IMG/VR virus record: IMGVR_UViG_3300049491_000383
Coordinates: 72,080 to 136,079 of that record
DNA: 64,000 nt
DNA from: a virus
Reading direction: 5' to 3' (one strand)
Below the pieces are notes generated by a model. The model was not told the origin of the DNA. It made no database searches and was given only the letters and a program-made list of their open reading frames with translations. Both the position numbers and the translations under genes were made by a program. Positions 10,641 to 61,572 of this stretch are shown in pieces; position 1 is the first letter of the stretch; each line of letters begins with the position of its first letter.

Positions 10641-11801
10641 TTATTTAAGATATTCTTTTAGATACTCTTCTGTTCTCTCAGCTAATACTGGATCAAAAGT
10701 AACATTCTGTAAGAAGCTATTAAACTGCTCAATTGTATTTAGTTCTTTCTGATCCAACAATTTTTGCAATCGGTCGTTAATTTCAATTCGGGCCATTTGA
10801 TCAACTATACCCGATTTCATCGAAGTTACATCAGTCTCAGAAATCGGGTTGATGTCAAATGTTATACCCTTAAACCCTTCTTGTCTAAGCTTCAATACAT
10901 ATTCCATTATATCTCTAACATTCATATAATTCATAATATTCATTGTGAACTTTATGATAATATTAGTATTTGGGTATTGTTTTCTTCTTTCCTGTAAACC
11001 CGACACAATGATCTTAAAATTTCGATCCCAGAGATTCCAGTTTAAATATTTGCGTGTTGGATTTTCACCAATTGCATCAAGACTACACATTAATACGATG
11101 TTAGGATGCTTATCAACAATACCATTTAGGATACCAAGTACGGCAGATCCATAAGATAGATTTGTAATAATAGAAATATACCTATTAGAATCAAATGGCA
11201 GAGCCATCATAAAATCAATGCAATCTTGGTCAAGCATTGGTTCACCACCAGTTACTTGCACGTTTTTAAGCAAGTTTACATCAAGTATATCGTGTATTCT
11301 TCTTGCTTCTGCAGGTCTTACTGCAATGCCTTTGAATTTAGTAAATCTCGATTGCTGATCTTCCCACATCGATGATACAGTCGGGTAGCAATAAACGCAC
11401 ATCAATTGACACTTGTTTGAAAATGCAATTTCAGCATTTCTAACAGGTTGATATACATCCAGATTTTTCCAATCTAATGGTCTACTGTCGTGGTGTGAGT
11501 GGCGGCGCCTGTATGATGGACCACCATCGTCGTCAATTTTCCAGCAAGAAGTGCATTGCGCATTCCTCTTGTTATCCTTAATGTCCCGACGAAGTTCAAT
11601 AAACTTCTTATTCAGTACACCTGTAACAGGATCAATTGGACTTGAACGAACTTTACAACAGGGAGAAACACTGTTGTCATAGAGATGAATCTGAGGCAAT
11701 CCAGTAAATGGAATTGTGCAACGATTATCTTGTGTCATAAATGTGACCCCATTGCCTTGTTCCACACTTCCCGTAAGTAGGAGGCTAGAGGGGGCATTCA
11801 C
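10641..11801 (-). CDS. radical SAM protein with N-terminal twitch/SPASM-like Cys domain
   Basis: CQLMCVYC, VTGGEP, N-terminal C..PF, CC and C..CW. Confidence 0.85.
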   Translation of the reverse strand: MNAPSSLLLTGSVEQGNGVTFMTQDNRCTIPFTGLPQIHLYDNSVSPCCKVRSSPIDPVTGVLNKKFIELRRDIKDNKRNAQCTSCWKIDDDGGPSYRRRHSHHDSRPLDWKNLDVYQPVRNAEIAFSNKCQLMCVYCYPTVSSMWEDQQSRFTKFKGIAVRPAEARRIHDILDVNLLKNVQVTGGEPMLDQDCIDFMMALPFDSNRYISIITNLSYGSAVLGILNGIVDKHPNIVLMCSLDAIGENPTRKYLNWNLWDRNFKIIVSGLQERRKQYPNTNIIIKFTMNIMNYMNVRDIMEYVLKLRQEGFKGITFDINPISETDVTSMKSGIVDQMARIEINDRLQKLLDQKELNTIEQFNSFLQNVTFDPVLAERTEEYLKEYLK

Positions 11802-11850
11802 CTCTTAATGCAGATGCTTTTAGAAACGATGCGCATCCACAAAATGAATT

Positions 11851-12051
11851 CTATACTACCAGTATCTGGTCTTCTGTCAGACCAATATCAACGCCTGTGT
11901 CAAGTTCAATGAGTTTATTCAGTGATGGCACAATGTCTTTTCTTGCTTTTTCTTTGTCCTTACTTGCAACATAGAAACCAGGAAAATCATCACAGATATA
12001 TATATGCCATCCATCAGTTTCCTTATGTTGAACTAGGACGGGAAAGTTCAT
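11851..12051 (-). CDS. HicB-like small protein
   Basis: W...C.DFPGF......E.A pattern. Confidence 0.4.
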   Translation of the reverse strand: MNFPVLVQHKETDGWHIYICDDFPGFYVASKDKEKARKDIVPSLNKLIELDTGVDIGLTEDQILVV

Positions 12052-12287
12052 GCAACCGAATTCCTAATGTCTTGTGCTGTACGGATTTCGTCTGCTTGAC
12101 GGATTAGGAATCGACCAAGTTGCTCAACCTGAGTAGGTGTTAGAAACATTTCACTACATCCACGAATTTCTTCGGGAAGAACGTGACGATCAAACTTGAC
12201 ATAAACCGATTCGGAGTACTCGTCGCTTTCGCGAACAGTTACATCGATTGTGAATGTCGGATTTGCATTAATTCTGAGTTGTGCCAT
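12048..12287 (-). CDS. hypothetical protein
   Basis: 79-aa ORF. Confidence 0.5.
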   Translation of the reverse strand: MAQLRINANPTFTIDVTVRESDEYSESVYVKFDRHVLPEEIRGCSEMFLTPTQVEQLGRFLIRQADEIRTAQDIRNSVA

Positions 12288-12304
12288 TTTGATTCCAAGT
12301 TAAT

Positions 12305-12380
12305 TGGTGCCCCCGCCATGATTCGAACACGGGACCCCCGCATTACAAGTGCGGTGCTCTACCAGCTGAGCTACAAGGGC
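12305..12380 (-). tRNA. tRNA-Thr(TGT)
   Basis: Canonical cloverleaf, loop CT-TGT-AA. Confidence 0.93.
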
Positions 12381-12433
12381 ATATCCTTATTTAGTATCTT
12401 ATTTTACAGCATTGTTCTTATATGGTCAAGCAC

Positions 12434-13255
12434 TCAATTAATTGAGCAAACTGCGCTCTTGGCCTTGTTAGCGCTCTTGGTCCGCGAGGGCCAAATTGTA
12501 TCTGCAAATTTCGCCTGTTTTGGCATAGGAAACACAAGCTTAGAGTCCTTTTGTACCTGTGCCAAGCTCGTCACAAATTGGTTCAACGAACCTTTTCCAG
12601 TTTCGTGCTTAAATTCAAACACAATAACTTCGTTGGTTTCAAGATCGACCAAAATCTTGTAGAATCCGTTTGGAACAGTTACCATGCTAGTACCGATTGT
12701 CTTATCTTGAGCTCTATTATAGACTGGGCCAGCATAGATTAGAATCCTGTGATCGCGATTAACTGCCCACGCGCGTGTCTGGGCTTCAAGCTTACTCCAA
12801 ATTCCGCGATTGAATGCTGGCAACTGTGGAGTCATGTTTGAAAGGATAAAACTTTCACGAGCTACTTCTGGATCCCAACTCATGTCTGCCGAGTTAGCAA
12901 TGTGACCCATATCATATCCGGATTTACTGTAATCCTTAACTTCTGCACGTTTATCTGCTGGAAGTGATCGATCAGATTTGAATGCACTTAGGCGCTTTTC
13001 GCAACCGGTTGCATTTGCTGGAGTAAGGACATAGGCAACCCACTGTGGGATCTTTGCCTTGTTATCGTGCTCAAGGAAATACGCTTTTCTGCAAATTAGG
13101 GTTGTATCCTGTTTTGCACCTGTTGGTTGACCAAACGGAACCTGTGCAGCACATTGCTTCACATCCAATGGATCTGACTGTGATTGTGCATTGGCTGTTG
13201 AAGCGAACGCAACTAGAATGGTAAGGAGTATATTTTTGATCATAAAAAAGCCCAT
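12434..13255 (-). CDS. DNA/RNA non-specific endonuclease (NucA/EndA family), secreted
   Basis: Signal peptide, SGYDMGH, SNMTPQ...FNRGIW..LE. Confidence 0.9.
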   Translation of the reverse strand: MGFFMIKNILLTILVAFASTANAQSQSDPLDVKQCAAQVPFGQPTGAKQDTTLICRKAYFLEHDNKAKIPQWVAYVLTPANATGCEKRLSAFKSDRSLPADKRAEVKDYSKSGYDMGHIANSADMSWDPEVARESFILSNMTPQLPAFNRGIWSKLEAQTRAWAVNRDHRILIYAGPVYNRAQDKTIGTSMVTVPNGFYKILVDLETNEVIVFEFKHETGKGSLNQFVTSLAQVQKDSKLVFPMPKQAKFADTIWPSRTKSANKAKSAVCSIN

Positions 13256-13305
13256 GTGATAATATACGTATTTATCACAGGGGCTGTCTACCTGGAGCGG
13301 GCAAG

Positions 13306-13494
13306 TTATTTCTTAGCAGGTGCTGCTACTTTCTTTGCCTTTTTTGCCTTCTTGACTTTCTTCTTTGCTGGTGTTGCCTTCTTGGCAGCGACAGCAGATG
13401 CTGCCTTTGCTGGTGCGGGTGCTACTGGAGCAGCAGCTGATGCACCAAACGACACTGCTAGTAGAACTGCAAGTGCTAATAGTGATTTCTTCAT
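13306..13494 (-). CDS. small secreted Lys/Ala-rich protein (Asr-like)
   Basis: MKKSLLALAVLLAVSFGASA followed by an AKK-rich tail; the ORF-track start overlaps a tRNA. Confidence 0.6.
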   Translation of the reverse strand: MKKSLLALAVLLAVSFGASAAAPVAPAPAKAASAVAAKKATPAKKKVKKAKKAKKVAAPAKK

Positions 13495-13511
13495 ATAATT
13501 CCTTTTTGTTA

Positions 13512-13587
13512 TGGAGCGGGTAAGGAGGCTCGAACTCCTGACATCTTGCTTGGCAAGCAAGCTCTCTACCAACTGAGATACACCCGC
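13512..13587 (-). tRNA. tRNA-Gly(GCC)
   Basis: Loop TT-GCC-AA, U73. Confidence 0.92.
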
Positions 13588-13603
13588 GGCAATCTATATT
13601 TAT

Positions 13604-14002
13604 CTAGTATAACGGAAGTCCCAATGATTTGCGACCTCTACCCTTATTTGCCGCACCACGATGTGGTGATTGACTGTGACAGTTGGGGCAGATTAGGCGA
13701 ACATTAGATGGTTTATCATCTGCAGAATTTCCATCAATATGATCAACCTCAAGTGTGATAGATTTCCCTAACCAATCAGTTACTGTGCAACCTTCATTTT
13801 CACAATTATATCCACGGTCTTTTGTAAGATATTTTCGTATGGTGGGACGATCAATCTTCTTTTCTAATGTCCCCGAATACCAGGCCTCTTTGTGTAGCTT
13901 TGATTTGTGCAATCCTCTGCATGTATTTGAACAATACTTTCCAGAAAACTGATGTGGAGAATATTCAAAATCTTTTTGACAATTAAGACAAGTAGCTTCC
14001 AT
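13604..14002 (-). CDS. HNH homing endonuclease
   Basis: YCS..C, LEVDHIDGN...N.RLICPNCH. Confidence 0.9.
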   Translation of the reverse strand: MEATCLNCQKDFEYSPHQFSGKYCSNTCRGLHKSKLHKEAWYSGTLEKKIDRPTIRKYLTKDRGYNCENEGCTVTDWLGKSITLEVDHIDGNSADDKPSNVRLICPNCHSQSPHRGAANKGRGRKSLGLPLY

Positions 14003-14095: not shown

Positions 14096-15529
14096 TTAGA
14101 AGTCGTAACGCTGGACCATGACGGTCTTCAGCATGATGCTGATCGGTGTCATTTCTTCACCACCTAGCACTGACTTAACAATGCTTGGAGAGAAGCCAGA
14201 CACAAGAGCTGCACCAGCCTTGTTATAGGTCACCGGGCTGTTACCGGCGCGGCCGTTCAAGTTCCAGAATACAACCTGCGGTACCTTGTACCCTGCAGCC
14301 TGATATTCCTTCTCGATGAACTCCATCGCCGATACGCTAACCGGGCCGCCGCCTGTCGAGTAACGACCGCTCTTACCAGTACCACCCGAAGTGATGCACT
14401 GGTCGAATTCCATGTCCGACAAGATCAAGACCTTTGTCGGCATTTCCTTCTGCGGAACCTTACCCTTGATTGCGGCAGACAAGATTAACTTGAATACTGC
14501 ACCCAGGTCGGTGTTCATTCCCCAATCCGAACGTTCCATCTGGTTGAAACGCTGTTCCAAAGTACCAGACAACTTTACCATCTGTGGCGAACCAGAGAAA
14601 GTAACGAACTGATCCTTGAACACACCACCCATACGCTCGGAAGTGTACAGGCCAAGTGATACAGCTACGTCCAGCGCAGTTACGCTACCGGATACGGCCA
14701 CACCGCTCATCGAGCCCGAAACGTCAACAACCGGTAGGATGTTTTCGTCAGAACCTTCCAAGTAGTTAGGCAATGCCTTCCACTGTGCGTTTGCAACAGC
14801 CTTGTCACCGTTACGAAGCGAACGGATCACATCGTAAGGGTACGCAACCGAAGCGTTGATCTTGGCTTCACCAGATTCCAACTTCTCCTTGTACTTTGCG
14901 TAACCGGCCGGGTCGTGCTTCAAGAATGCCTTCTGGTAACGACCAGCAGCAACTGAAGGAACGTGTGGGTACACGATTCCAGTCCAGTCCTGAGCGCACA
15001 TCTTCTGTTCAACAGTGTTGGACAGACCGACCAAAAGCTTACGGTAAGCCTTAGGAGTCAACTTCATGTACGAACGGATCTTGTTGGCTTGTTCGCCCTG
15101 ACGCGGCATCCACTTCGCGCACAGACCGTCTTGCACGTCGTTCAACGCGAAAGCAATCATGCGCAGAGCATCACGCTCCAGCACAGTACCAAAAGTCATC
15201 AAGACGTCGTCCCAACGACCAAGTTCGGGAACCTTCACCAACAGGCGTTCTGCAAGCTTCGGCTCGGAACGGATTACGTAACCGAACAGCTTACGGAAAG
15301 TTTCACGCTCACCCGCACCACCACGTGCGTCACGAGCCCATTCAAGGACACGGATCGCAACTTCGGAGTCTTCCACCAAAGCACCTGCGAAAGTGCTTGT
15401 GATGTCCTTACCACGGCTTGCACCGGCCAAGAAGAAGAGGTCCACGTTCTTGTTCAAAGACGAGGAGTTTGTAACTGCGCCGTTGGAAGTTACTGCGGAT
15501 GCGTTTACGGCTTCAAATAGTGTTGTCAT
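14096..15529 (-). CDS. DUF2828-type Ro60/TROVE-like protein with C-terminal vWA domain
   Basis: T.NGA...SS...VDLFF, RD.RGG.GER, GRWDD, AKWMPR, MIDAS DVSGSM, TDL..VF, SDMEFD, VFWNL, VSGFS. Confidence 0.85.
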   Translation of the reverse strand: MTTLFEAVNASAVTSNGAVTNSSSLNKNVDLFFLAGASRGKDITSTFAGALVEDSEVAIRVLEWARDARGGAGERETFRKLFGYVIRSEPKLAERLLVKVPELGRWDDVLMTFGTVLERDALRMIAFALNDVQDGLCAKWMPRQGEQANKIRSYMKLTPKAYRKLLVGLSNTVEQKMCAQDWTGIVYPHVPSVAAGRYQKAFLKHDPAGYAKYKEKLESGEAKINASVAYPYDVIRSLRNGDKAVANAQWKALPNYLEGSDENILPVVDVSGSMSGVAVSGSVTALDVAVSLGLYTSERMGGVFKDQFVTFSGSPQMVKLSGTLEQRFNQMERSDWGMNTDLGAVFKLILSAAIKGKVPQKEMPTKVLILSDMEFDQCITSGGTGKSGRYSTGGGPVSVSAMEFIEKEYQAAGYKVPQVVFWNLNGRAGNSPVTYNKAGAALVSGFSPSIVKSVLGGEEMTPISIMLKTVMVQRYDF

Positions 15530-15546
15530 TTTGTTTTTCCTTTATC

Positions 15547-15666
15547 AGAATCAGTTTTACTTTGCCTGCTGCTCTACCAACTGAGCTACCTCACTATTTC
15601 TAGTGAAGGCGGGACTCGAACCCACGACCGTCTGGTTATATTAAGTTTTGTTGCGGAATTGATTCT
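15547..15666 (-). ncRNA. YrlA-like circularly permuted tRNA mimic closed by the CMGCAA helix (family member A)
   Basis: AGAATCA-ATTCCGCAAC...T-arm GTGGG-TTCGAGT-CCCGC, acceptor stem closed by GAAA, D-arm GCTC-AGTTGGTA-GAGC...TGATTCT. Confidence 0.8.
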
Positions 15667-15724
15667 TTATTATAGAGAGGTATTCGATACAACTCAGTGT
15701 TCGGATACATCCATAAATAAAATC

Positions 15725-15823
15725 AGATTAGCTTTTGGCGAGTTTTTGCTTTCCCCTCCGGAAAGGTTCTTTGACCCGAAGGCCAAATAGTTCATGGTTT
15801 TATTTTGTTGCTGTAACTAATCT
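15725..15823 (-). ncRNA. CAGCAA-helix RNA with two internal hairpins (member B)
   Basis: AGATTAG-TTACAGCAAC...TTTGGCC-TTCG-GGTCAAA, CTTTCC/GGAAAG...CTAATCT. Confidence 0.7.
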
Positions 15824-15845
15824 TTAGTGTTTGCAAGTGTCTACT

Positions 15846-16226
15846 TTATACTTCTTCCACAATCTCGTCAATGAATTCAGTTACGTATCCGGGGTTTGGG
15901 CAACTTACAGCCGGGTCAACAAGAATTGTTGCTCCAATTGTAATCTCTTCATCGTCGGAATCAACCAACTCATAAGAGATATAGTAACCACCGGTGCCTG
16001 TAAACGAATGCCATTCATCGGGGAGTTCAACCTTGAGTTGCTTCTCTTTGATGATTACCTTAGCATTATTCATTGCACCCCTTCGAATCATCTCCTGAAT
16101 GCTTTTCATTACATCAAAAACATTCTGGGGTTCCGAAGGCCATTTAGTAACGCTCGTATTCTTCTCCCAAATAAAGGCTGCGGCCTCGTGTAAGGCTGCG
16201 AGAGGATACGATACATTAACAATCAT
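15846..16226 (-). CDS. hypothetical protein embedded between family RNAs
   Basis: 126-aa ORF. Confidence 0.55.
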   Translation of the reverse strand: MIVNVSYPLAALHEAAAFIWEKNTSVTKWPSEPQNVFDVMKSIQEMIRRGAMNNAKVIIKEKQLKVELPDEWHSFTGTGGYYISYELVDSDDEEITIGATILVDPAVSCPNPGYVTEFIDEIVEEV

Positions 16227-16251
16227 TGTGCTTCTTTCTAAAGTAGAAAAC

Positions 16252-16511
16252 AGAGTGATGTCAGGGACAAACTTTTCATCCGGAGATTACTAACTTTGCT
16301 AAGAGAGCCTAACCCCTCGTTCGAACCTTTTACATCGTCCTAGGATGTTTGCTGTACGTAACATCTGGTTTCAACGCCATGCTTCTTGAGGCTATAGCTC
16401 CACCAGAATTACTAATGCACACCTTCAACGGGTTGCCCCTCCACTATGCATCTTTTAACCAGCGCCATGATACGGATTTTACGCCGTGAATTGGTTTGCT
16501 GTATTCACTCT
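16252..16511 (-). ncRNA. large CAGCAA-helix RNA with two nested motif copies (member C)
   Basis: Outer AGAGTGA-ATACAGCAAA...TCACTCT; inner GATGTTA-CGTACAGCAAA...TGACATC. Confidence 0.65.
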
Positions 16512-16529
16512 TTGTATATAACAAGTCTT

Positions 16530-16559
16530 ATTATATAGTGTGTTTACTTATCCCGTCAA
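16530..16559 (-). promoter_or_regulatory. sigma70-type promoter for the RNA/DUF2828 operon
   Basis: TTGACG-18 nt-TATAAT. Confidence 0.6.
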
Positions 16560-16597
16560 CCTAAAACCGTTGCGATAATAGGTCAAAAATGACGGTT

Positions 16598-17344
16598 TTA
16601 TTTTTGCGATTGGACGTGTTGTAACTCTTTGTCAATGAAATCTGCACCACGCTTCAAAAGCCGCTTATAATCCGGAGAATTATTTTTATCTCGGAACATG
16701 CCTGCTACGTCATGTACTTCTAATTCATACTTGAGCATTTTGTGTGCCTTGTTTCGTGCCTCAATCTGTGGCAGGGCTGCAAGACGTTTGATCTTTGGTA
16801 CAAGAGAATTTAGGACTTGGACAAATCTAGCATTTATTTCTGCAGGCTGCGCCAGATACTTCATATCTGGAGCATAAGGATCGTTCTTCGACTTTCTATA
16901 TTCTTTATCTTTAGGAGTTGAATATCGCTTACTTGCTGCTACTCTGTATTCAGATTTAACATCGTCCAACATGTGTCTAAGTTCATGAGCTATCGTAGAC
17001 TTCATGAAATCCGATGATAGATAATCAGAGTTAAATATCATTGATTTAGTATTTGCATCCCAGAGGCCGCCAGGTGCATCTTTAGTGCCCGGATTTTCTT
17101 TTCTGACACGATCCAATAATGCAGAGTCGGACATGATGACAATCTTTATGTCATCTATTCCCTCAAATGGTGTGTCGAGGATTTGCCCAATCTTCCCTAC
17201 ATACAATGTTTCAGTATTTTCGTCGTCCCAATCTAAATCCTGATCTGCATATTTTTGCAGGAAAGAATAAAGCGGGTCAGCTAGGGAGATTAGTGCCCTA
17301 TCTTCTTCTGTAGTTTCAACTAGGAATAATTCTTGCAGTCTCAT
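16598..17344 (-). CDS. zincin-like metallopeptidase-motif protein
   Basis: HELRH motif and Y...P.EINAR. Confidence 0.55.
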   Translation of the reverse strand: MRLQELFLVETTEEDRALISLADPLYSFLQKYADQDLDWDDENTETLYVGKIGQILDTPFEGIDDIKIVIMSDSALLDRVRKENPGTKDAPGGLWDANTKSMIFNSDYLSSDFMKSTIAHELRHMLDDVKSEYRVAASKRYSTPKDKEYRKSKNDPYAPDMKYLAQPAEINARFVQVLNSLVPKIKRLAALPQIEARNKAHKMLKYELEVHDVAGMFRDKNNSPDYKRLLKRGADFIDKELQHVQSQK

Positions 17345-17375
17345 AGCGTATCCTTGATACGCTATTTATCACAAA

Positions 17376-17762
17376 TCAGGTAACAGCAACACCACGAAGA
17401 ATGTCAAACTCGTTTGGACGAAGTTTGAGTTCAATCATGATATCGCGGCGCTCTTCGTCTGTCTTTTTGATCCAGGCAGTCATAGACTTTTCATCACCAC
17501 GCATATAGGATGGCATATTGCCATCAATCCATTTAGCAAGGTCCTTGAAACTCCTACCGCTCCATGAACTATCAGCTCGTAGTATGGCTGTCTGAAAGTT
17601 ATTCTTCAGCACTGCTTCCAGAAAGCTCCCTGGTGGCAATCCATAAGCCATGTAGTTCCACAATCCTTCCCGAATAGCATCTGGAACAGAATCAAAATAG
17701 GCAAATGTTGCCGTAAATTGCGGATGGATTGATCTGTAGTCCATAAGTGGCCTATATTCCAT
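17376..17762 (-). CDS. hypothetical protein
   Basis: 128-aa ORF (Y...G.PPGSFL.AVL.N). Confidence 0.55.
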   Translation of the reverse strand: MEYRPLMDYRSIHPQFTATFAYFDSVPDAIREGLWNYMAYGLPPGSFLEAVLKNNFQTAILRADSSWSGRSFKDLAKWIDGNMPSYMRGDEKSMTAWIKKTDEERRDIMIELKLRPNEFDILRGVAVT

Positions 17763-17939
17763 TAATGGATCTTGAATCCAGTAAGGTTAAGCAACCAGCC
17801 AAGAACGTAGAGCAGGGCCAACAATGGCCACGCAATTCCGAGCAGTAACGAGTCCTGTTTGGAGACAGAACTCTCGCGTGTGCGGTAAGCAACGATTCCA
17901 CCAATCAGAAAATAAATCAACAGTGCAGTTAAAATCATA

Positions 17940-19025
17940 TCAATCCTCTTCCTTTAATAGGAATTTGTTGCTGATGGTTTTGAAACTAAAACCACCATCC
18001 ATTCTCTTGTAAACAAGACCTTCACGAATCGCATGCTTGATGCTAGGACCTTCTGCAAATGCAAGCAACTTATCCACATCAAACAACCCGAATTCATACA
18101 ATGGAACATCCATATGCAGAACAGGGACATGATGTACCATCTCGCGATTTACACCTCGTGCCCAAAGCTCATCCAAAATCAGATGACGTTCTCTCGGAGG
18201 TACATAACCACCTGTGGTAATATTGAAGATGTCAAACACAAACAATTTATGCGAAGCAAATGCCTCACGATTCTTCTGTATACCCGGGCCCATGAGCTCA
18301 GCTTGTACAGCAAAATCTCTGTCAAAAGAGCGCATAATATCGTGTAGCCCGCTGTCTACAAACATGCGTACCAAACTATTGTGCTCGTTTTTAGGATCAT
18401 CCAACTTCAGTTCCCAATTACGACCGCAAACACCCGGAACACCATCCTTTACAAATGCAGTAAAGGAAGTACCATCGAACTTCATGCTGATTTCGTAACG
18501 TGCATCCGCGTTATCAACAAAGATATCGCGCTTCATGTTTTGGCAACGTTCCTGATCAGTCTTTCGAATGAATGCAGGGAAGTTACCCTTCACTTGACCA
18601 GCAAGTTCTGTAGGAATGGCAGCTTCATACTTCTGGATATCCAACAAGTCAGATACGTCGGTGCCGACCATAAAGAACTCTGAAAGTTCCTGTCCTTCAT
18701 CTTCGTCGGAATCAATAAAGTCGTTGAAGAACAAATTCACAGGTAATGCAAGGCCCTGGCTGAGCTGACCACGCAACTTAATAGTCTTGATACGGAAACC
18801 CTCACGCTCTCCCATTCTCTTGGAGGAGTTTCTGCGCAAGATTTCGAATTCGGGACGGACAGGCAAATGGCTGTCGATTTCAAAGTAGACACACAAATCG
18901 CCCACATTGAATTCAGACTTCTTTACCACGCATTGCCAGCCATCAATTTTTGCCAGCTGAACTAAGTCCGCACCTTCGATAGGTAGCAGATCATCAATCC
19001 TACGTATTGTTGCAAGCTTTCTCAT
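17940..19025 (-). CDS. ATP-dependent RNA ligase, DRB0094/Rnl5 family
   Basis: N-terminal OB fold (I.GAD..., YFEIDS, KLRGQLSQGL), KTDQER, motif I KFDG, EGLVYK, SFK.IS. Confidence 0.9.
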   Translation of the reverse strand: MRKLATIRRIDDLLPIEGADLVQLAKIDGWQCVVKKSEFNVGDLCVYFEIDSHLPVRPEFEILRRNSSKRMGEREGFRIKTIKLRGQLSQGLALPVNLFFNDFIDSDEDEGQELSEFFMVGTDVSDLLDIQKYEAAIPTELAGQVKGNFPAFIRKTDQERCQNMKRDIFVDNADARYEISMKFDGTSFTAFVKDGVPGVCGRNWELKLDDPKNEHNSLVRMFVDSGLHDIMRSFDRDFAVQAELMGPGIQKNREAFASHKLFVFDIFNITTGGYVPPRERHLILDELWARGVNREMVHHVPVLHMDVPLYEFGLFDVDKLLAFAEGPSIKHAIREGLVYKRMDGGFSFKTISNKFLLKEED

Positions 19026-30596: not shown

Positions 30597-30898
30597 ATTA
30601 TGAATGTTGTAGTGTCGAAATCTTCAGAATGTGTGGGCTCATCGACTAAGCTAAGGGACTTGCACCCTATCCGATATACTATTTCTAGTAGTGACCATTG
30701 CTTCTGCTAGACATTTTCTACAACGAAATTTTTACTCAATAGCCGAAAGTTGATCAAGGGTGATCTTGTATCCGTTATACACAAAATAGGGGCCTGTATC
30801 ATCCACTCTGTGAGCGTCAACCTTCTCTGCTTCCGTCAATTTCTTAAATTCTTTTACGTCTTCTAACGATGCTTGTTCCATTTTTTTATCCTTATATC

Positions 30899-30951
30899 AG
30901 AATGCTTATTTTCAAATTACAAGTTTGATTTTTAGTTGCTGAACGCATTCT
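30899..30951 (-). ncRNA. CAGCAA-helix RNA with Thr(UGU) anticodon stem-loop mimic (member D)
   Basis: AGAATGC-GTTCAGCAAC...TCAAA-CTTGTAA-TTTGA...GCATTCT. Confidence 0.75.
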
Positions 30952-34902: not shown

Positions 34903-34978
34903 TGGCGCGTTGTCGGGGGATCGAACCCCGTCACCTTCAGATTTAGAATCCGCCGCTCTCCCACTGAGCTAACAACGC
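34903..34978 (-). tRNA. amber suppressor tRNA (anticodon CTA)
   Basis: Full cloverleaf, anticodon arm GCGGA-TT-CTA-AA-TCTGA, G73, CCA. Confidence 0.85.
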
Positions 34979-37094: not shown

Positions 37095-37200
37095 GTTTTC
37101 CTTTCTTACAGCACACTGAGTAAGTGCTCAATAGTTTAAAACTCAGTTAGGTACCCACTGTGGGCAAAACTATTTATCACCGGCACAAAATTATGCCAAA

Positions 37201-37222
37201 GAAAATGGGGCCGAAGCCCCAT
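37201..37222 (-). terminator. terminator after tmRNA
   Basis: ATGGGGC-TTCG-GCCCCAT followed by TTT. Confidence 0.75.
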
Positions 37223-37610
37223 GGTATTTTGGTTTACAAGGTATAACCTACCCCGGAGTCTAGTGTTTCTTAGGCAGCTAGGAGCATCATGTCGCTATCA
37301 GCCAAGGCTGAAAGGTCAAGAGCTGTCTCAGTTGTAATTGCGTTTGCTTTTACGGTTTGTGCTTGATTTACGGTCATCGCCTACCGTGTTGTCCACTCTC
37401 GTACTCTTTACCCCGTCGAATACCTGGTCCGCCCCATTATTAAACATACCGTGAAAAATTCGAATTCTCTTTCCTGCCCATACAACAGGTGACCGTCTTT
37501 AAGCTGGAGTCGAACCAGCAATAACCCATTCGATATGTTTAATGGTGGAGCGGGCGGGAATCGAACCCGCGTCCGGAACACTTTTCTGTTCGCTTCATAC
37601 AACAATAACT
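37222..37610 (-). ncRNA. ssrA: circularly permuted (two-piece) tmRNA
   Basis: The T-arm and ...CGCTCCACCA end (37543) lie upstream of the 5' end GGGGCGGACCAGGTATTCGAC (37435). G3:U70 is present. The tag ORF at 37347-37270 reads ANAITTETALDLSALADSDMMLLAA*. Confidence 0.9.
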
Positions 37611-37639
37611 AACTACTTTATAGCATTCTATTTATCTTG

Positions 37640-50433: not shown

Positions 50434-50444
50434 ACTGTATAGAC

Positions 50445-50501
50445 AGAATACGTTTTATTTTCAATTAAAAGTTGATTTTTTGAAATTGCTGAATGTATTC
50501 T
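50445..50501 (-). ncRNA. CAGCAA-helix RNA with Lys(UUU) anticodon stem-loop mimic (member E)
   Basis: AGAATAC-ATTCAGCAAT...TCAA-CTTTTAA-TTGA...GTATTCT. Confidence 0.75.
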
Positions 50502-51713: not shown

Positions 51714-51801
51714 AGTTTTCCTTATATAGTCAGAGTGCGCTTTCTTTTCAAGATAATGGTTTGAAATTGTTTTAGGTTTGCGGTAAACACTCTTTAGAAA
51801 G

Positions 51802-54969: not shown

Positions 54970-54980
54970 ATAAAATAATC

Positions 54981-55036
54981 AGGATACCTTTTTGCTTTTT
55001 TACAGAAAAGTTGATTTGGGTTGCGGAATGTATCCT
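54981..55036 (-). ncRNA. CCGCAA-helix RNA with Tyr(GUA)-like loop (member F)
   Basis: AGGATAC-ATTCCGCAAC...CTTTT-CTGTAAA-AAAG...GTATCCT. Confidence 0.7.
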
Positions 55037-57569: not shown

Positions 57570-57642
57570 TCTACGTCATACGGGCTCCGATCCCGTGACC
57601 CCCGCCCTTGCCGGCGGTGCTCTCCCTCTGAGCTAATGGCGT
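57570..57642 (-). pseudogene. tRNA-like element with 6-nt anticodon loop and no CCA
   Basis: D-arm GCTC/GAGC, CCGCC-GGCAAG-GGCGG, T-loop ATCGGAG. Confidence 0.5.
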
Positions 57643-58470: not shown

Positions 58471-58482
58471 ATTGAATAAAAC

Positions 58483-58598
58483 AGGTTCGCATTATACGTG
58501 CTACCACTACACTAAAGCGACGACCAACCTCGCTCCCAGGACTCGAACCTGGCCCTTCCATTTTCAAGATGAATAATTTTTGTTGCTGAAACGAACCT
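58483..58598 (-). ncRNA. circularly permuted tRNA(UGA) closed by the CAGCAA helix (member G)
   Basis: AGGTTCG-TTTCAGCAAC, TTCAT-CTTGAAA-ATGGA, T-arm CCAGG/CCTGG, looped acceptor GAGCGA/TCGCTT, D-arm, CGAACCT. Confidence 0.8.
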
Positions 58599-58615
58599 AA
58601 CGGTCGAAATAAATC

Positions 58616-58717
58616 AGGATGTTTGGCTTTGGACCAGGAGTCGAACCCTATTGCCATGCCCCCTCTGGGCTGGTCCGCTGAGTTTTGGTAGCGATTTTAG
58701 ATTGCTGAAACCATCCT
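58616..58717 (-). ncRNA. CAGCAA-helix RNA with T-loop domain (member H)
   Basis: AGGATG-GTTTCAGCAAT...GG-TTCGACT-CC...CATCCT. Confidence 0.7.
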
Positions 58718-61455: not shown

Positions 61456-61572
61456 TGGTGCCGCCGCCGGGAATCGAACACCGGATCTACTCCTTGTAAT
61501 GGAATTTAGATTGCTGTATGTATCCTTGACAGGATCACCTTTTTAGTTGTGTTGCCTTTACACTACAGCGAC
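61456..61572 (-). ncRNA. CCA-ending tRNA(UAC)-like RNA with the CAGCAA helix inserted between the D and anticodon arms (member I)
   Basis: GTCGCTG/CGGCGGC-A-CCA, D-arm, insert ATCCT-GTCA-AGGAT-ACATACAGCAAT, TTCC-ATTACAA-GGAG, T-arm. Confidence 0.78.

What the first reader, a model, noticed from the sequence alone, without database searches (positions are those of the whole stretch)
14096..19025. Candidate new system: Ro60/TROVE-like (DUF2828) protein, a family of CMGCAA-helix tRNA-mimic RNAs, and an RNA ligase
Seen in sequence: at least 9 minus-strand non-coding loci (15547, 15725, 16252 with two copies, 30899, 50445, 54981, 58483, 58616, 61456) share one architecture. Each has a 5-7 bp helix whose sequence differs between copies but stays paired (AGAATCA, AGATTAG, AGAGTGA, AGAATGC, AGAATAC, AGGATAC, AGGTTCG, AGGATG). 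The helix is followed directly by a conserved single-stranded TWCMGCAA and an A-rich linker. A covarying stem next to a conserved unpaired motif is the signature of a protein-binding RNA module. The cargo varies: whole permuted tRNAs, bare anticodon stem-loops or other hairpins. Three loci lie between a sigma70 promoter (16530-16559) and the DUF2828-type vWA gene, and a DRB0094/Rnl5-type RNA ligase is about 1.4 kb further upstream. Established: bacterial Ro60 (TROVE+vWA) binds Y RNAs through a conserved terminal helix, YrlA Y RNAs mimic tRNA, and Ro60 loci often sit with RNA-repair genes. The motif here is not the canonical Ro60/YrlA helix. Inference: the DUF2828 protein is a divergent Ro60 using its own set of adaptor RNAs, acting in tRNA repair or as decoys against host anticodon nucleases.
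Basis: partly seen in the sequence, partly recalled or inferred. Interest (0 to 1): 0.95.

Follow-up and report, generated by a model that had tools for sequence, protein, structure and literature searches.

The report
Phage Ro60-like protein with handle RNAs
A giant phage encodes a ring-shaped Ro60-like protein together with a family of small RNAs that share one short stem-plus-motif "handle"; the same handle sits beside this protein's gene in many unrelated phages and closely resembles the enigmatic Class I RNAs of social amoebae.

Summary
The window carries nine RNAs closed by a covarying 6-7 bp stem, (A)G...C(U)G, followed by single-stranded WCMGCAA. A tenth carries the same module as an internal hairpin.

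The DUF2828/DUF7788 protein folds as a full-length Ro60 look-alike: the top 12 listed Foldseek PDB hits are all Ro60/TROVE.

Covariance models find the same handle next to DUF2828 genes or in their tRNA arrays. This holds in FelixO1, KVP40, S13, CBB and in Listeria, Campylobacter, Mycobacterium, Staphylococcus, Bacillus, Enterococcus and Fusobacterium phages. Five DUF2828-free phages with tRNAs gave 0 matches.

Cargo varies: YrlA-like tRNA elbows, hairpins with anticodon-type loops, larger domains, or none (a bare hairpin touching the gene's ribosome site).

Rfam's Dictyostelium Class I RNA model picks out these elements full length but below threshold.

A structural likeness to Ro60 was already reported for a protein of phage Bas63, and the family is already annotated "Ro-like". 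I found no description of the RNA family, its range, or the Class I link.

Binding and function are inferred. No expression data were available.

The parts
14096..15529 (-). DUF2828 + DUF7788 protein (477 aa): Ro60-fold ring plus vWA domain with an intact DxSxS..T..D metal site
   Evidence: Pfam DUF7788 E 3.8e-51 and DUF2828 E 1e-26. PHROG 850 'RNA-binding protein' E 6e-150. AF2 model pLDDT 89.2. Foldseek top 12 listed hits all Ro60/TROVE. Invariant D269 S271 S273 T340 D372.
15546..15666 (-). Handle RNA with a YrlA-like tRNA elbow (T arm, capped acceptor hairpin, D arm). Helix AGAATCA/TGATTCT; its 3' G is followed by the ribosome-binding site of the DUF2828 gene.
   Evidence: Rfam YrlA hit at 15571-15629, 35.8 bits, E 7.9e-6, below the gathering score of 69. 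Aligned with 11 similar elements.
15724..15823 (-). Handle RNA, about 100 nt, helix AGATTAG/CTAATCT, cargo of two small hairpins. Orthologues in 8 related loci.
16251..16511 (-). Large handle RNA (261 nt), helix AGAGTGA/TCACTCT, with a nested second motif copy at 16349-16356. No Rfam match.
   Evidence: Orthologues of 126-274 nt in L010, L011, L012, L017, L020, L023, L025 and L031.
16530..16559 (-). Sigma70-like promoter (TTGACG-18-TATAAT) upstream of the RNA array and the DUF2828 gene
   Evidence: 11 of 12 positions; consensus match only.
16598..17344 (-). Conserved ORF (248 aa) of no known family, between the ligase and the RNA array
   Evidence: tblastn matches in 21 of the 51 loci searched, L009-L059. 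No Pfam or PHROG hit. Only viral clusters in the ESM Atlas.
17940..19025 (-). Rnl5-type RNA ligase (N-terminal OB fold plus adenylyltransferase domain)
   Evidence: Full-length match to Naegleria gruberi RNA ligase 5cot, E 5.4e-71. Found upstream of DUF2828 in 19 viral-contig loci and in CBB.
30898..30951 (-). Short handle RNA (54 nt). Inner hairpin TCAAA/TTTGA with 7-nt loop CUUGUAA, the same as the anticodon loop of the phage's tRNA-Thr(UGU).
   Evidence: RF01414 25.6 bits.
50444..50501 (-). Short handle RNA (58 nt). Inner hairpin with loop CUUUUAA, the same as the anticodon loop of tRNA-Lys(UUU). Best match to the Dictyostelium Class I RNA model.
   Evidence: RF01414 34.8 bits, model positions 1-56 of 56.
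51731..51793 (-). Short handle RNA (63 nt), directly after tRNA-Tyr. Inner hairpin with a 9-nt loop.
   Evidence: RF01414 20.7 bits.
54980..55036 (-). Short handle RNA (57 nt). Inner hairpin with loop CUGUAAA, the same as the anticodon loop of tRNA-Tyr(GUA).
   Evidence: RF01414 23.7 bits.
58482..58598 (-). Handle RNA with a YrlA-like tRNA elbow, helix AGGTTCG(T)/(G)CGAACCT
58615..58717 (-). Handle RNA with a 6-bp helix AGGATG/CATCCT and a T-arm-like cargo, directly after tRNA-Leu
61456..61572 (-). tRNA-shaped RNA in normal order (acceptor stem, D arm, T arm, ACCA end). The handle is an internal hairpin (ATCCT-GTCA-AGGAT) plus TACAGCAA, placed before a hairpin with 7-nt loop AUUACAA.
   Evidence: The same layout occurs in Cronobacter phage S13, L009 5896-6016.

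Best explanation
The locus encodes a phage ribonucleoprotein system of the Ro60/Y RNA type, built on a different protein clade and a different RNA handle.

The protein. The DUF2828/DUF7788 protein is a Ro60-fold ring (HEAT-like repeats plus a vWA domain with a complete metal site).

The RNAs. Its proposed partners all carry one portable handle with four features:
- a 6-7 bp stem formed by the RNA's 5' and 3' ends (5'-(A)G... and ...C(U)G-3');
- the single-stranded motif N1-2-W-C-M-G-C-A-A directly after the 5' strand;
- an A-rich tract before the 3' strand;
- an unpaired G after it.

The cargo. The handle carries exchangeable cargo: a tRNA elbow without an anticodon arm (YrlA-like), a small hairpin with an anticodon-type 7-nt loop, larger folded domains, or nothing.

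Expression. The RNAs would be made from the promoter in front of the DUF2828 gene, or inside the tRNA arrays, and cut out like tRNAs. Where the last handle touches the Shine-Dalgarno sequence of the DUF2828 gene, binding of the protein would feed back on its own translation.

Function. The particle most likely deals with tRNA-directed conflict. It would either offer tRNA parts as decoys or adaptors to host tRNA-cleaving defences, or bring broken tRNAs to the neighbouring Rnl5 ligase.

Shown here: the RNA structure by covariation, the fold of the protein, and co-occurrence and synteny of the two. Inferred: direct binding, processing, autoregulation and the biological role.
For: Fold. An AF2 model built from a 65-sequence alignment has pLDDT 89.2 and pTM 0.88. 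Its top 12 listed Foldseek PDB hits (ranks 1-13) are all Ro60/TROVE over 512-587 alignment columns, E 9e-9 to 4e-6, TM 0.48-0.63. The next hits are vWA-only proteins at E >= 0.017. A sequence profile of the family hits TROVE/Ro60 chains weakly at the metal site, E 0.014-0.046.

RNA structure.
- 40 of 54 motif instances have a perfect 7-bp partner, against 14.6% in a helix-swap control.
- In 9 short elements the 7 pairs are never broken, and 4 pairs show compensatory changes.
- In 18 elements from 5 phage lineages, 126 of 126 cells pair. Shuffles gave 63.7% and slid controls 32-38%. All 7 pairs show changes on both sides.

Association with the gene.
- 30 of 37 related viral loci carry the strict motif on the gene strand, and 1 locus has a hit on the opposite strand.
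- In five related genomes (four complete, one 62% complete) there are 33 hits on the gene strand, 5 on the other strand and 6 control hits.
- Model R1, trained only on this clade, finds elements beside the gene in FelixO1, Listeria AG20 and Campylobacter CPX. Six hits have E < 0.05, all on the gene strand.
- Model R2 finds untrained elements beside the gene in Staphylococcus BE02, Bacillus Thrax3, Enterococcus iF6 and Fusobacterium phiKSUM. Twelve hits have E < 0.05, all on the gene strand.
- R2 also finds elements in the KVP40 5' UTR, in L039 and L043 (10 of 10 on the gene strand), and six in gaps of the CBB tRNA region.
- Genome-wide, hits in FelixO1, AG20, CPX, Faith1 and BE02 all cluster at the gene, except one at E 0.08.
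- Controls: T4, T5, Bxz1, phage G and CcrColossus gave 0 R2 hits at E <= 0.1 in 1.22 Mb and 0 PF11443 hits. The positive control gave PF11443 in 5 of 5.

Bare hairpins. Forms of 39-43 nt end 1-3 nt before the ribosome site of the DUF2828 gene in 7 loci.

tRNA likeness.
- The YrlA model hits 15571-15629 at 35.8 bits. Published CcrColossus YrlAs score 30-42 bits.
- T and D arms are conserved in 12 elements.
- Anticodon-type loops: 9 of 32 short elements by automatic fold, against 0.9% of shuffles. Three window loops are identical to the phage's own Thr, Tyr and Lys anticodon loops.

Published hint. In passages of bioRxiv 10.1101/2024.10.10.617714, Bas63 gp130 is reported as Ro60-like by structure and as a counter to the ppl defence system. 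I did not check that gp130 belongs to the DUF2828 family. FelixO1 and other Felixounavirus records carry a DUF2828 homologue at about 42% identity, and from recall Bas63 is a Felixounavirus.
Against: - There is no evidence of transcription, RNA ends or binding.
- Pfam does not call TROVE on the protein. BLASTP against a true phage TROVE protein finds nothing significant.
- The elements in A3 were chosen partly because a partner strand exists, so the 100% pairing is inflated by selection.
- The handle is not always near the gene. L035, L040 and L044 show none at E <= 0.1 within the DNA held (up to 6 kb on each side; L040 ends just after the gene). ME3 has only one weak hit (E 0.024) 29 kb away, and Lak-A1 only a borderline one (E 0.11). 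CBB has none within 8 kb.
- Most elements lie in or beside tRNA arrays, so co-location with DUF2828 could partly reflect shared residence there.
- The Dictyostelium model also gave one 24.3-bit hit inside a T4 coding gene, and T4 lacks DUF2828.
Confidence: 0.72

Rival explanations
1. The handle is a processing or stability signal of phage tRNA-array transcripts, read by a host or phage RNase or chaperone. It sits near DUF2828 only because that gene also lives beside tRNA arrays.
For: - Most dispersed copies lie between tRNA genes, several directly after a tRNA 3' end.
- In CBB all six elements are in the tRNA region, 200 kb from the DUF2828 gene.
- The conserved ends (AG... and ...CUG) could mark cleavage sites.
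Against: - Five phages with tRNAs but no DUF2828 have no element.
- Faith1, BE02 and phiKSUM carry the elements right beside the gene with no tRNA array adjacent.
- Bare hairpins sit in the gene's own 5' UTR.
Confidence: 0.12
2. The RNAs are substrates of the neighbouring Rnl5-type ligase rather than partners of DUF2828. The terminal stem brings the 5' and 3' ends together like a nicked duplex, which the ligase seals to make circular RNAs.
For: - Ligase, orf248, RNA array and DUF2828 lie in the same order in 19 viral-contig loci and in CBB.
- The ligase is a full-length relative of Naegleria RNA ligase. That this ligase type seals nicks in duplex RNA is recalled knowledge, not a result of a call.
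- Permuted and unpermuted tRNA-shaped versions of the same module exist.
Against: - The annotated stretches around the gene in FelixO1, CPX, Faith1, BE02, Thrax3, iF6 and phiKSUM show elements but no RNA ligase.
- The conserved unpaired 3' G would leave an overhang rather than a flush nick.
Confidence: 0.08
3. The copies are a mobile or recombinogenic DNA repeat (miniature inverted-repeat element) with no role as RNA.
For: - Terminal inverted repeats and many dispersed copies.
- One relative (L010) looks like a deletion between two motif copies.
Against: - The inverted repeats differ between copies yet stay complementary; all 7 pairs covary.
- Copies are strictly on one strand, 33 against 5.
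- The internal parts are unrelated.
- The module is conserved across phages of four host phyla.
Confidence: 0.02

Closest known systems
Bacterial and phage Ro60 (Rsr, TROVE) with Y RNAs YrlA/YrlB. Sources: Chen et al. 2014, PMC4201824 (passages and Table S2 read); Thermus phage phiLo Ro60-Yrl1/2, PMC12135203 (passages read).
   Same: - A ring-plus-vWA protein encoded next to one to several small RNAs.
- Each RNA has a stem joining its ends, with a conserved motif on the 5' side.
- At least one RNA carries a tRNA-like T arm, acceptor and D arm module without an anticodon arm.
- The locus is linked to RNA ligases.
   Different: - The protein belongs to Pfam DUF2828/DUF7788, not TROVE.
- The RNA motif is WCMGCAA after a 7-bp stem, not GNCGAAN0-1G or CGAA.
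- CcrColossus, a true TROVE phage with six tandem Y RNAs, has none of these handles.
- Cargo includes anticodon-loop hairpins, and there are bare hairpins in the 5' UTR.
Dictyostelium Class I RNAs (Rfam RF01414). Source: Kjellin et al. 2021, PMC7919456 (abstract and passages read).
   Same: - A short stem joins the 5' and 3' ends, with structure conserved but not sequence.
- A conserved unpaired motif lies directly after the 5' strand. The Rfam consensus reads GaUcuC-CUUACAGCAA...GagAuC-UG.
- The near-invariant dictyostelid positions C6, C9, A10 and A11 correspond to four of the five phage invariants C, G, C, A, A.
- A conserved G sits near the 5' end, and the 3' end reads UG.
- The interior is variable and the length is about 55-65 nt.
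- The Rfam model hits the phage elements over all 56 positions.
   Different: - All phage scores (13-35 bits) are below the gathering score of 41.5.
- Class I RNAs are reported as unique to Dictyostelia, with their own promoter element, and bind the RRM protein Rnp1A.
- No link between Class I RNAs and DUF2828 or Ro60 is in the papers I could search.
- Many phage elements are much longer and carry tRNA-like cargo.
- Whether dictyostelids encode a DUF2828 protein could not be tested here.
Bas63 gp130. Source: PhageMaP preprint, bioRxiv 10.1101/2024.10.10.617714 (passages read).
   Same: The preprint reports a Ro60-like structure for gp130 and places its gene directly upstream of a tRNA array. 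The authors suggest that some of the 'tRNA genes' are Y RNAs. This matches the layout of the DUF2828 gene in FelixO1.
   Different: - I did not check that gp130 is a DUF2828 protein. That rests on recalling Bas63 as a Felixounavirus and on DUF2828 hits in other Felixounavirus records.
- In the passages I read, the preprint defines no RNA motif or structure.
- In FelixO1 the handle RNAs lie in the gaps between annotated tRNAs rather than being the tRNAs themselves.
- The preprint's supplements were not available to me.

Membership tests
Ro60 / TROVE protein family | Pfam TROVE domain (PF05731) detected by sequence | tested here: not met
   Pfam gives DUF7788 and DUF2828 only. CcrColossus gp139 does hit TROVE, E 1.2e-17. 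BLASTP between the two proteins gives best E 0.21.
Ro60 / TROVE protein family | Helical-repeat ring followed by a vWA domain, over the full length | tested here: met
   AF2 model pLDDT 89.2. The top 12 listed Foldseek hits are Ro60/TROVE chains aligned over 512-587 columns. This is a predicted model, not a solved structure.
Ro60 / TROVE protein family | Metal-ion site (MIDAS) residues in the vWA domain | tested here: met
   D269, S271, S273, T340 and D372 are invariant in 65 sequences. Assigning them to the MIDAS motif rests on general knowledge of vWA domains.
Ro60 / TROVE protein family | Binds adjacent Y RNAs | not testable with these tools
   Only synteny and co-occurrence are shown.
YrlA (Rfam RF02553) | Score at or above the gathering threshold (69 bits) | tested here: not met
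   35.8 bits over model positions 27-81 only. Published CcrColossus YrlAs also score only 30-42 bits.
YrlA (Rfam RF02553) | T arm, capped acceptor-like hairpin and D arm in permuted order, closed by a terminal stem | tested here: met
   for 15546-15666 and 58482-58598.
YrlA (Rfam RF02553) | GNCGAAN0-1G motif near the 5' end | tested here: not met
   The 5' part reads AGAAUCA-A-UUCCGCAA. The motif definition is from PMC4201824.
Dictyostelium Class I RNA (Rfam RF01414) | Score at or above the gathering threshold (41.5 bits) | tested here: not met
   Best is 34.8 bits, at window 50444-50500; the others score 13-26 bits.
Dictyostelium Class I RNA (Rfam RF01414) | Short stem joining the 5' and 3' ends, conserved in structure but not in sequence | tested here: met
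Dictyostelium Class I RNA (Rfam RF01414) | Conserved 11-nt motif directly after the 5' strand of the stem | tested here: met
   The phage consensus N-N-U-W-C-M-G-C-A-A aligns to CUUACAGCAA of the model. C, G, C, A, A are invariant in 18 elements.
Dictyostelium Class I RNA (Rfam RF01414) | Length 42-65 nt | tested here: inconclusive
   Four window elements are 54-63 nt; six others are 100-261 nt.
Dictyostelium Class I RNA (Rfam RF01414) | Found in Dictyostelia, with the DUSE promoter element | tested here: not met
   These are phage genes. A sigma70-like promoter or tRNA-array context applies instead.
Rnl5-type RNA ligase (Naegleria / Deinococcus type) | N-terminal OB fold plus adenylyltransferase domain, full-length similarity to NgrRnl | tested here: met
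   Pfam PF21189 plus PF09414. 5cot E 5.4e-71 over residues 1-361. The name 'Rnl5' is recalled.

The most novel reading that the evidence does not exclude
The phage handle RNAs and the Class I RNAs of dictyostelid amoebae are one ancient RNA family. It would be the Y RNA equivalent of the DUF2828 branch of Ro60-like proteins, a branch present in phages, bacteria, plants and fungi.

On this reading:
- Dictyostelids encode a DUF2828 protein that binds Class I RNAs through the stem plus the CUUACAGCAA motif.
- The phage versions use the same handle to display tRNA parts, either the elbow or an anticodon loop of Thr, Tyr, Lys and others. These would act as decoys or adaptors against tRNA-cleaving host defences.
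- That role would explain why the Ro60-like gp130 of Bas63 is reported to counter a defence system.
Probability: 0.35. Interest if true: 0.95.

Novelty: new variant of a known kind. Interest (0 to 1): 0.86.

Why it matters
DUF2828 proteins occur in at least 710 of 50,697 deposited phage records, including FelixO1-, KVP40-, A511/P100-like and cluster L phages. They form thousands of protein clusters: 6177 at E <= 0.001. I found no study of the family under that name.

A defined, searchable RNA partner would turn an 'RNA-binding protein' label into a testable particle. It would also give the reported anti-defence phenotype of Bas63 gp130 a molecular handle.

The finding extends the Ro60/Y RNA principle to a second protein clade with its own recognition code.

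The resemblance to Dictyostelium Class I RNAs bears on an old question. These abundant RNAs were first reported in 2004, their function is still unclear, and they are thought to be confined to social amoebae. The resemblance offers a concrete candidate protein partner and an origin to test.

Many of these elements lie in unannotated gaps of phage tRNA arrays. At least two tRNA-shaped ones are annotated as odd tRNAs, in S13.

Tried and rejected
- Single-sequence AF2 fold of the protein: pLDDT 35, unusable. Replaced by the alignment-based fold.
- phmmer of the protein against PDB sequences: nothing meaningful.
- Megablast of the locus against deposited phages: no match.
- Expression: no RNA holder listed among 24 public runs that hold the stretch or part of it. 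Read laying was therefore not used, and this says nothing about expression.
- Rfam at gathering thresholds over the whole window: only tRNAs and a permuted tmRNA.
- The strict pattern AGRNT... was too narrow outside the clade. In FelixO1 it gave one hit inside a coding gene and missed the real AGACC-type elements.
- The idea that TWCMGCAA is a promoter or MotA-like box on the other strand: dropped, because all genes and elements are on one strand and the stems covary.
- A possible sigma70 -10 box directly before 15666: rejected, because its spacing to any -35 box is wrong (by eye).
- orf248: no family from Pfam, PHROGs or the ESM Atlas.
- A Dictyostelium DUF2828 protein: not found and not testable. 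The 'longer' protein search returned plant and fungal members only. The Atlas gave only viral and bacterial clusters. Avesson et al. 2011, which lists the Class I pull-down proteins, is not held.
- Earlier scan notes, searched by place and by sequence: nothing.
- Anticodon-loop mimicry outside the clade (FelixO1, Listeria, by eye): no clear 7-nt anticodon-type loops, so this feature is not general.

Full report
**Setting.** The window is the last 64 kb of a 136-kb viral record that CheckV rates 35% complete. Related complete genomes are 362-385 kb with terminal repeats, so this is a jumbo phage. ARAGORN finds 56 RNA genes, all on the minus strand: 55 tRNAs and a permuted tmRNA. No deposited phage is close at the DNA level.

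**The observation.** TWCMGCAA occurs 23 times against 9.3 expected. The copies that matter share a longer context. The pattern AGRNTNNNTWCMGCAA occurs 10 times in the whole record, all on the minus strand and all in the window, with no control matches.

For nine of them the 6-7 nt before the motif have an exact complement 30-245 nt downstream, always followed by G. The helices are AGAATCA, AGATTAG, AGAGTGA, AGAATGC, AGAATAC, AGAGTG(T), AGGATAC, AGGTTCG and AGGATG.

The locus ending at 61456 has a different topology. It is a tRNA-shaped RNA with a 7-bp acceptor stem and an ACCA end. The handle is an internal hairpin followed by TACAGCAA.

**Covariation.** Across the window and 37 related viral loci, 40 of 54 distinct motif instances have a perfect 7-bp partner. 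A control that swaps helices between instances gives 14.6%. Most of the remainder have a 6-bp partner plus G.
- In nine short elements the seven pairs are never broken, and four show compensatory changes.
- In 18 short elements from five phage lineages, 126 of 126 cells pair. Shuffles gave 64% and slid registers 32-38%. All seven pairs change on both sides.
- These 18 were picked partly because a partner exists, so the percentage is inflated. The motif-first count is the fairer figure.

**The protein.** The 477-aa product of 14096-15529 hits Pfam DUF7788 and DUF2828 but not TROVE. It also hits PHROG 850, 'RNA-binding protein'.

Folded with 64 diverse relatives it gives a confident model, pLDDT 89.2. 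Its top 12 listed Foldseek matches in the PDB are all Ro60/TROVE proteins aligned over the full length. They include Xenopus, human and Deinococcus Ro60 and the Thermus phage phiLo Ro60. After them come only generic vWA domains. The residues of the vWA metal site are invariant. I therefore read it as a Ro60 paralogue that sequence methods barely connect to TROVE.

The family is very large: 6177 clusters at 50% identity. It is present in 710 deposited phage records, and plants and fungi have it too.

**Prior art on the protein.** Some mycobacteriophage records already call it 'Ro-like RNA binding protein'. A 2024 preprint reports that Bas63 gp130 looks like Ro60 by structure and counters the ppl defence. 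It guesses that some neighbouring tRNA genes are Y RNAs (passages read). That gp130 is a member of this family is my inference, not something I checked. Bas63 is a Felixounavirus from recall, and other Felixounavirus records carry a homologue at about 42% identity.

**Does the RNA go with the gene?**
- In 30 of 37 related loci the strict motif lies on the gene strand, usually just upstream. One locus has a hit on the opposite strand.
- In five related genomes, four complete and one 62% complete, the counts are 33 on the gene strand, 5 on the other strand and 6 controls.
- Model R1, trained only on four window elements and five from distant metagenomic relatives, finds elements beside the DUF2828 gene of FelixO1, Listeria phage AG20 and Campylobacter phage CPX. 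By eye and by script the same module stands beside the gene in KVP40, S13 and mycobacteriophage Faith1.
- The broader model R2 finds untrained elements beside the gene in Staphylococcus BE02, Bacillus Thrax3, Enterococcus iF6 and Fusobacterium phiKSUM, in the KVP40 leader, and in L039 and L043.
- R2 also finds six elements that fit intergenic gaps of the CBB tRNA region.
- All hits below E 0.05 are on the gene strand. Genome-wide scans place them only at the gene, apart from one hit at E 0.08.
- Five phages with tRNAs but no DUF2828 gave nothing in 1.22 Mb: T4, T5, and the TROVE-bearing Bxz1, phage G and CcrColossus. The PF11443 positive control worked.
- Against generality: L035, L040 and L044 show none in the DNA held around the gene. 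ME3 and Lak-A1 give only borderline hits. CBB has none near the gene.

**Anatomy of the handle and cargo.** The consensus is a 6-7 bp stem, then one or two nucleotides, then W-C-M-G-C-A-A. The cargo follows, then an A-rich tract, then the 3' strand, then G. Cargo falls into five classes:
- Bare 39-43 nt hairpins whose 3' G is followed at once by the ribosome site of the DUF2828 gene, in seven loci. KVP40 has a similar leader. This suggests autoregulation.
- RNAs of 54-69 nt with an inner hairpin. Four of these are in the window.
- RNAs of about 100 nt with two small hairpins.
- RNAs of 110-132 nt with a T arm, a capped acceptor hairpin and a D arm, as in YrlA.
- RNAs of 183-274 nt with a large unknown domain.

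S13 and the window also hold tRNA-shaped versions in normal order, with the handle as a hairpin in the anticodon region. This supports the view that the handle is a portable unit.

**Anticodon-type loops.** In the short class many inner hairpins have a 4-5 bp stem and a 7-nt loop of the form Y-U-NNN-A-A. An automatic fold finds this in 9 of 32 elements, against 0.9% of shuffles; by eye it is about half. Three window loops, CUUGUAA, CUGUAAA and CUUUUAA, equal the anticodon loops of the phage's own tRNA-Thr, tRNA-Tyr and tRNA-Lys. I did not see this clearly in FelixO1 or Listeria, so it may be specific to the clade.

**Comparison with known RNAs.** Canonical Y RNAs use a GNCGAA/CGAA motif, and the Rfam YrlA consensus shows it. 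The handle here is different, and CcrColossus's six canonical Y RNAs have none of it.

Unexpectedly, an Rfam scan at permissive thresholds matched the short elements to RF01414, Dictyostelium Class I RNA. The matches cover all 56 model positions. The best is 34.8 bits against a threshold of 41.5. Across five phage genomes, 12 of 14 matches at E <= 1 fall on elements I had defined independently. The five control phages gave two matches, one of them (24.3 bits) inside a T4 coding gene.

The Rfam consensus, GaUcuC-CUUACAGCAA...GagAuC-UG, has the same layout. The positions that Kjellin et al. report as almost invariant (C6, C9, A10, A11) correspond to four of the five phage invariants. Those authors describe Class I RNAs as unique to Dictyostelia and of unclear function.

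I found no paper linking Class I RNAs to Ro60 or DUF2828. I could not test whether dictyostelids have a DUF2828 protein. I saw that note only after and did not test it.

**Neighbours.** The ligase at 17940-19025 is a full-length relative of Naegleria RNA ligase. The order ligase, orf248, RNA array, DUF2828 recurs in 19 viral-contig loci, and a ligase lies two genes upstream in CBB. Listeria AG20 has RtcB and an RNA ligase within 5 kb. The CBB homologue is annotated as a structural protein. If that is right, it would suggest delivery with the virion.

**Verdict.** The structured RNAs are real and the protein is Ro60-like. The two travel together across phages of Proteobacteria, Campylobacterota, Firmicutes, Actinobacteria and Fusobacteria. 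Binding, processing, autoregulation and the tRNA-conflict role are inferences. I rate the system as a new variant of the Ro60/Y RNA kind. The possible kinship with Class I RNAs is the most novel open reading.

Noticed in passing
window 34903-34978 (-): A tRNA with anticodon CUA (ARAGORN labels it 'Pyl'), that is, an amber-suppressor-type tRNA. It might point to TAG reassignment or suppression in this jumbo phage.
   Followed up: no
window 37179-37635 (-): Permuted (two-piece type) tmRNA gene carried by the phage: Rfam tmRNA_permuted, 115 bits.
   Followed up: no
window 57572-57642 (-): ARAGORN calls a tRNA with a two-base anticodon. It may be another tRNA-like RNA rather than a true tRNA.
   Followed up: no
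window 16598-17344 (-): A 248-aa ORF with no family. It matches 21 of the 51 loci searched and always lies between the RNA ligase and the handle-RNA array. It may be a further component of the system.
   Followed up: partly
window 15846-16226 (-): A 126-aa ORF sits inside the RNA array, between the 261-nt and the 100-nt RNAs. It is present in only 4 related loci, so it looks like an insertion.
   Followed up: partly
L009 5896-6016 and 6026-6138 (Cronobacter phage S13): Two genes annotated tRNA-Ser (121 nt) and tRNA-OTHER (113 nt) are tRNA-shaped RNAs. Their anticodon arm is replaced by a hairpin (CAAAC/GTTTG) followed by UAUUCAGCA, an unpermuted version of the handle RNAs.
   Followed up: partly
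L050 7944-9458 (Pectobacterium phage CBB, CBB_183): The DUF2828 homologue is annotated 'structural protein' in the record, which hints that it is packaged in the virion.
   Followed up: no
L010 683-808: In this relative the large handle RNA is only 126 nt. The first motif runs straight into the sequence that follows the nested second motif in the window, as if the two motif copies had recombined.
   Followed up: no
L083 553-604 (-) = T4 132052-132103: The Dictyostelium Class I model gives a 24.3-bit match inside T4 gene 31.2. It contains ACAGCAA and a 4-5 bp stem but no CUG end. Probably chance.
   Followed up: partly
window 10641-14002 (-): Downstream neighbours of the DUF2828 gene are an HNH endonuclease, a non-specific DNA/RNA endonuclease (Endonuclease_NS) and a radical SAM protein, interleaved with tRNA genes.
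   Followed up: no
L053 9425-9805 (mycobacteriophage Faith1): Three handle RNAs, the middle one tRNA-like, lie between a hairpin that looks like a terminator (by eye) just after the Ro-like gene and a strong terminator-like hairpin. They form a compact non-coding unit in an unannotated 370-nt gap.
   Followed up: partly
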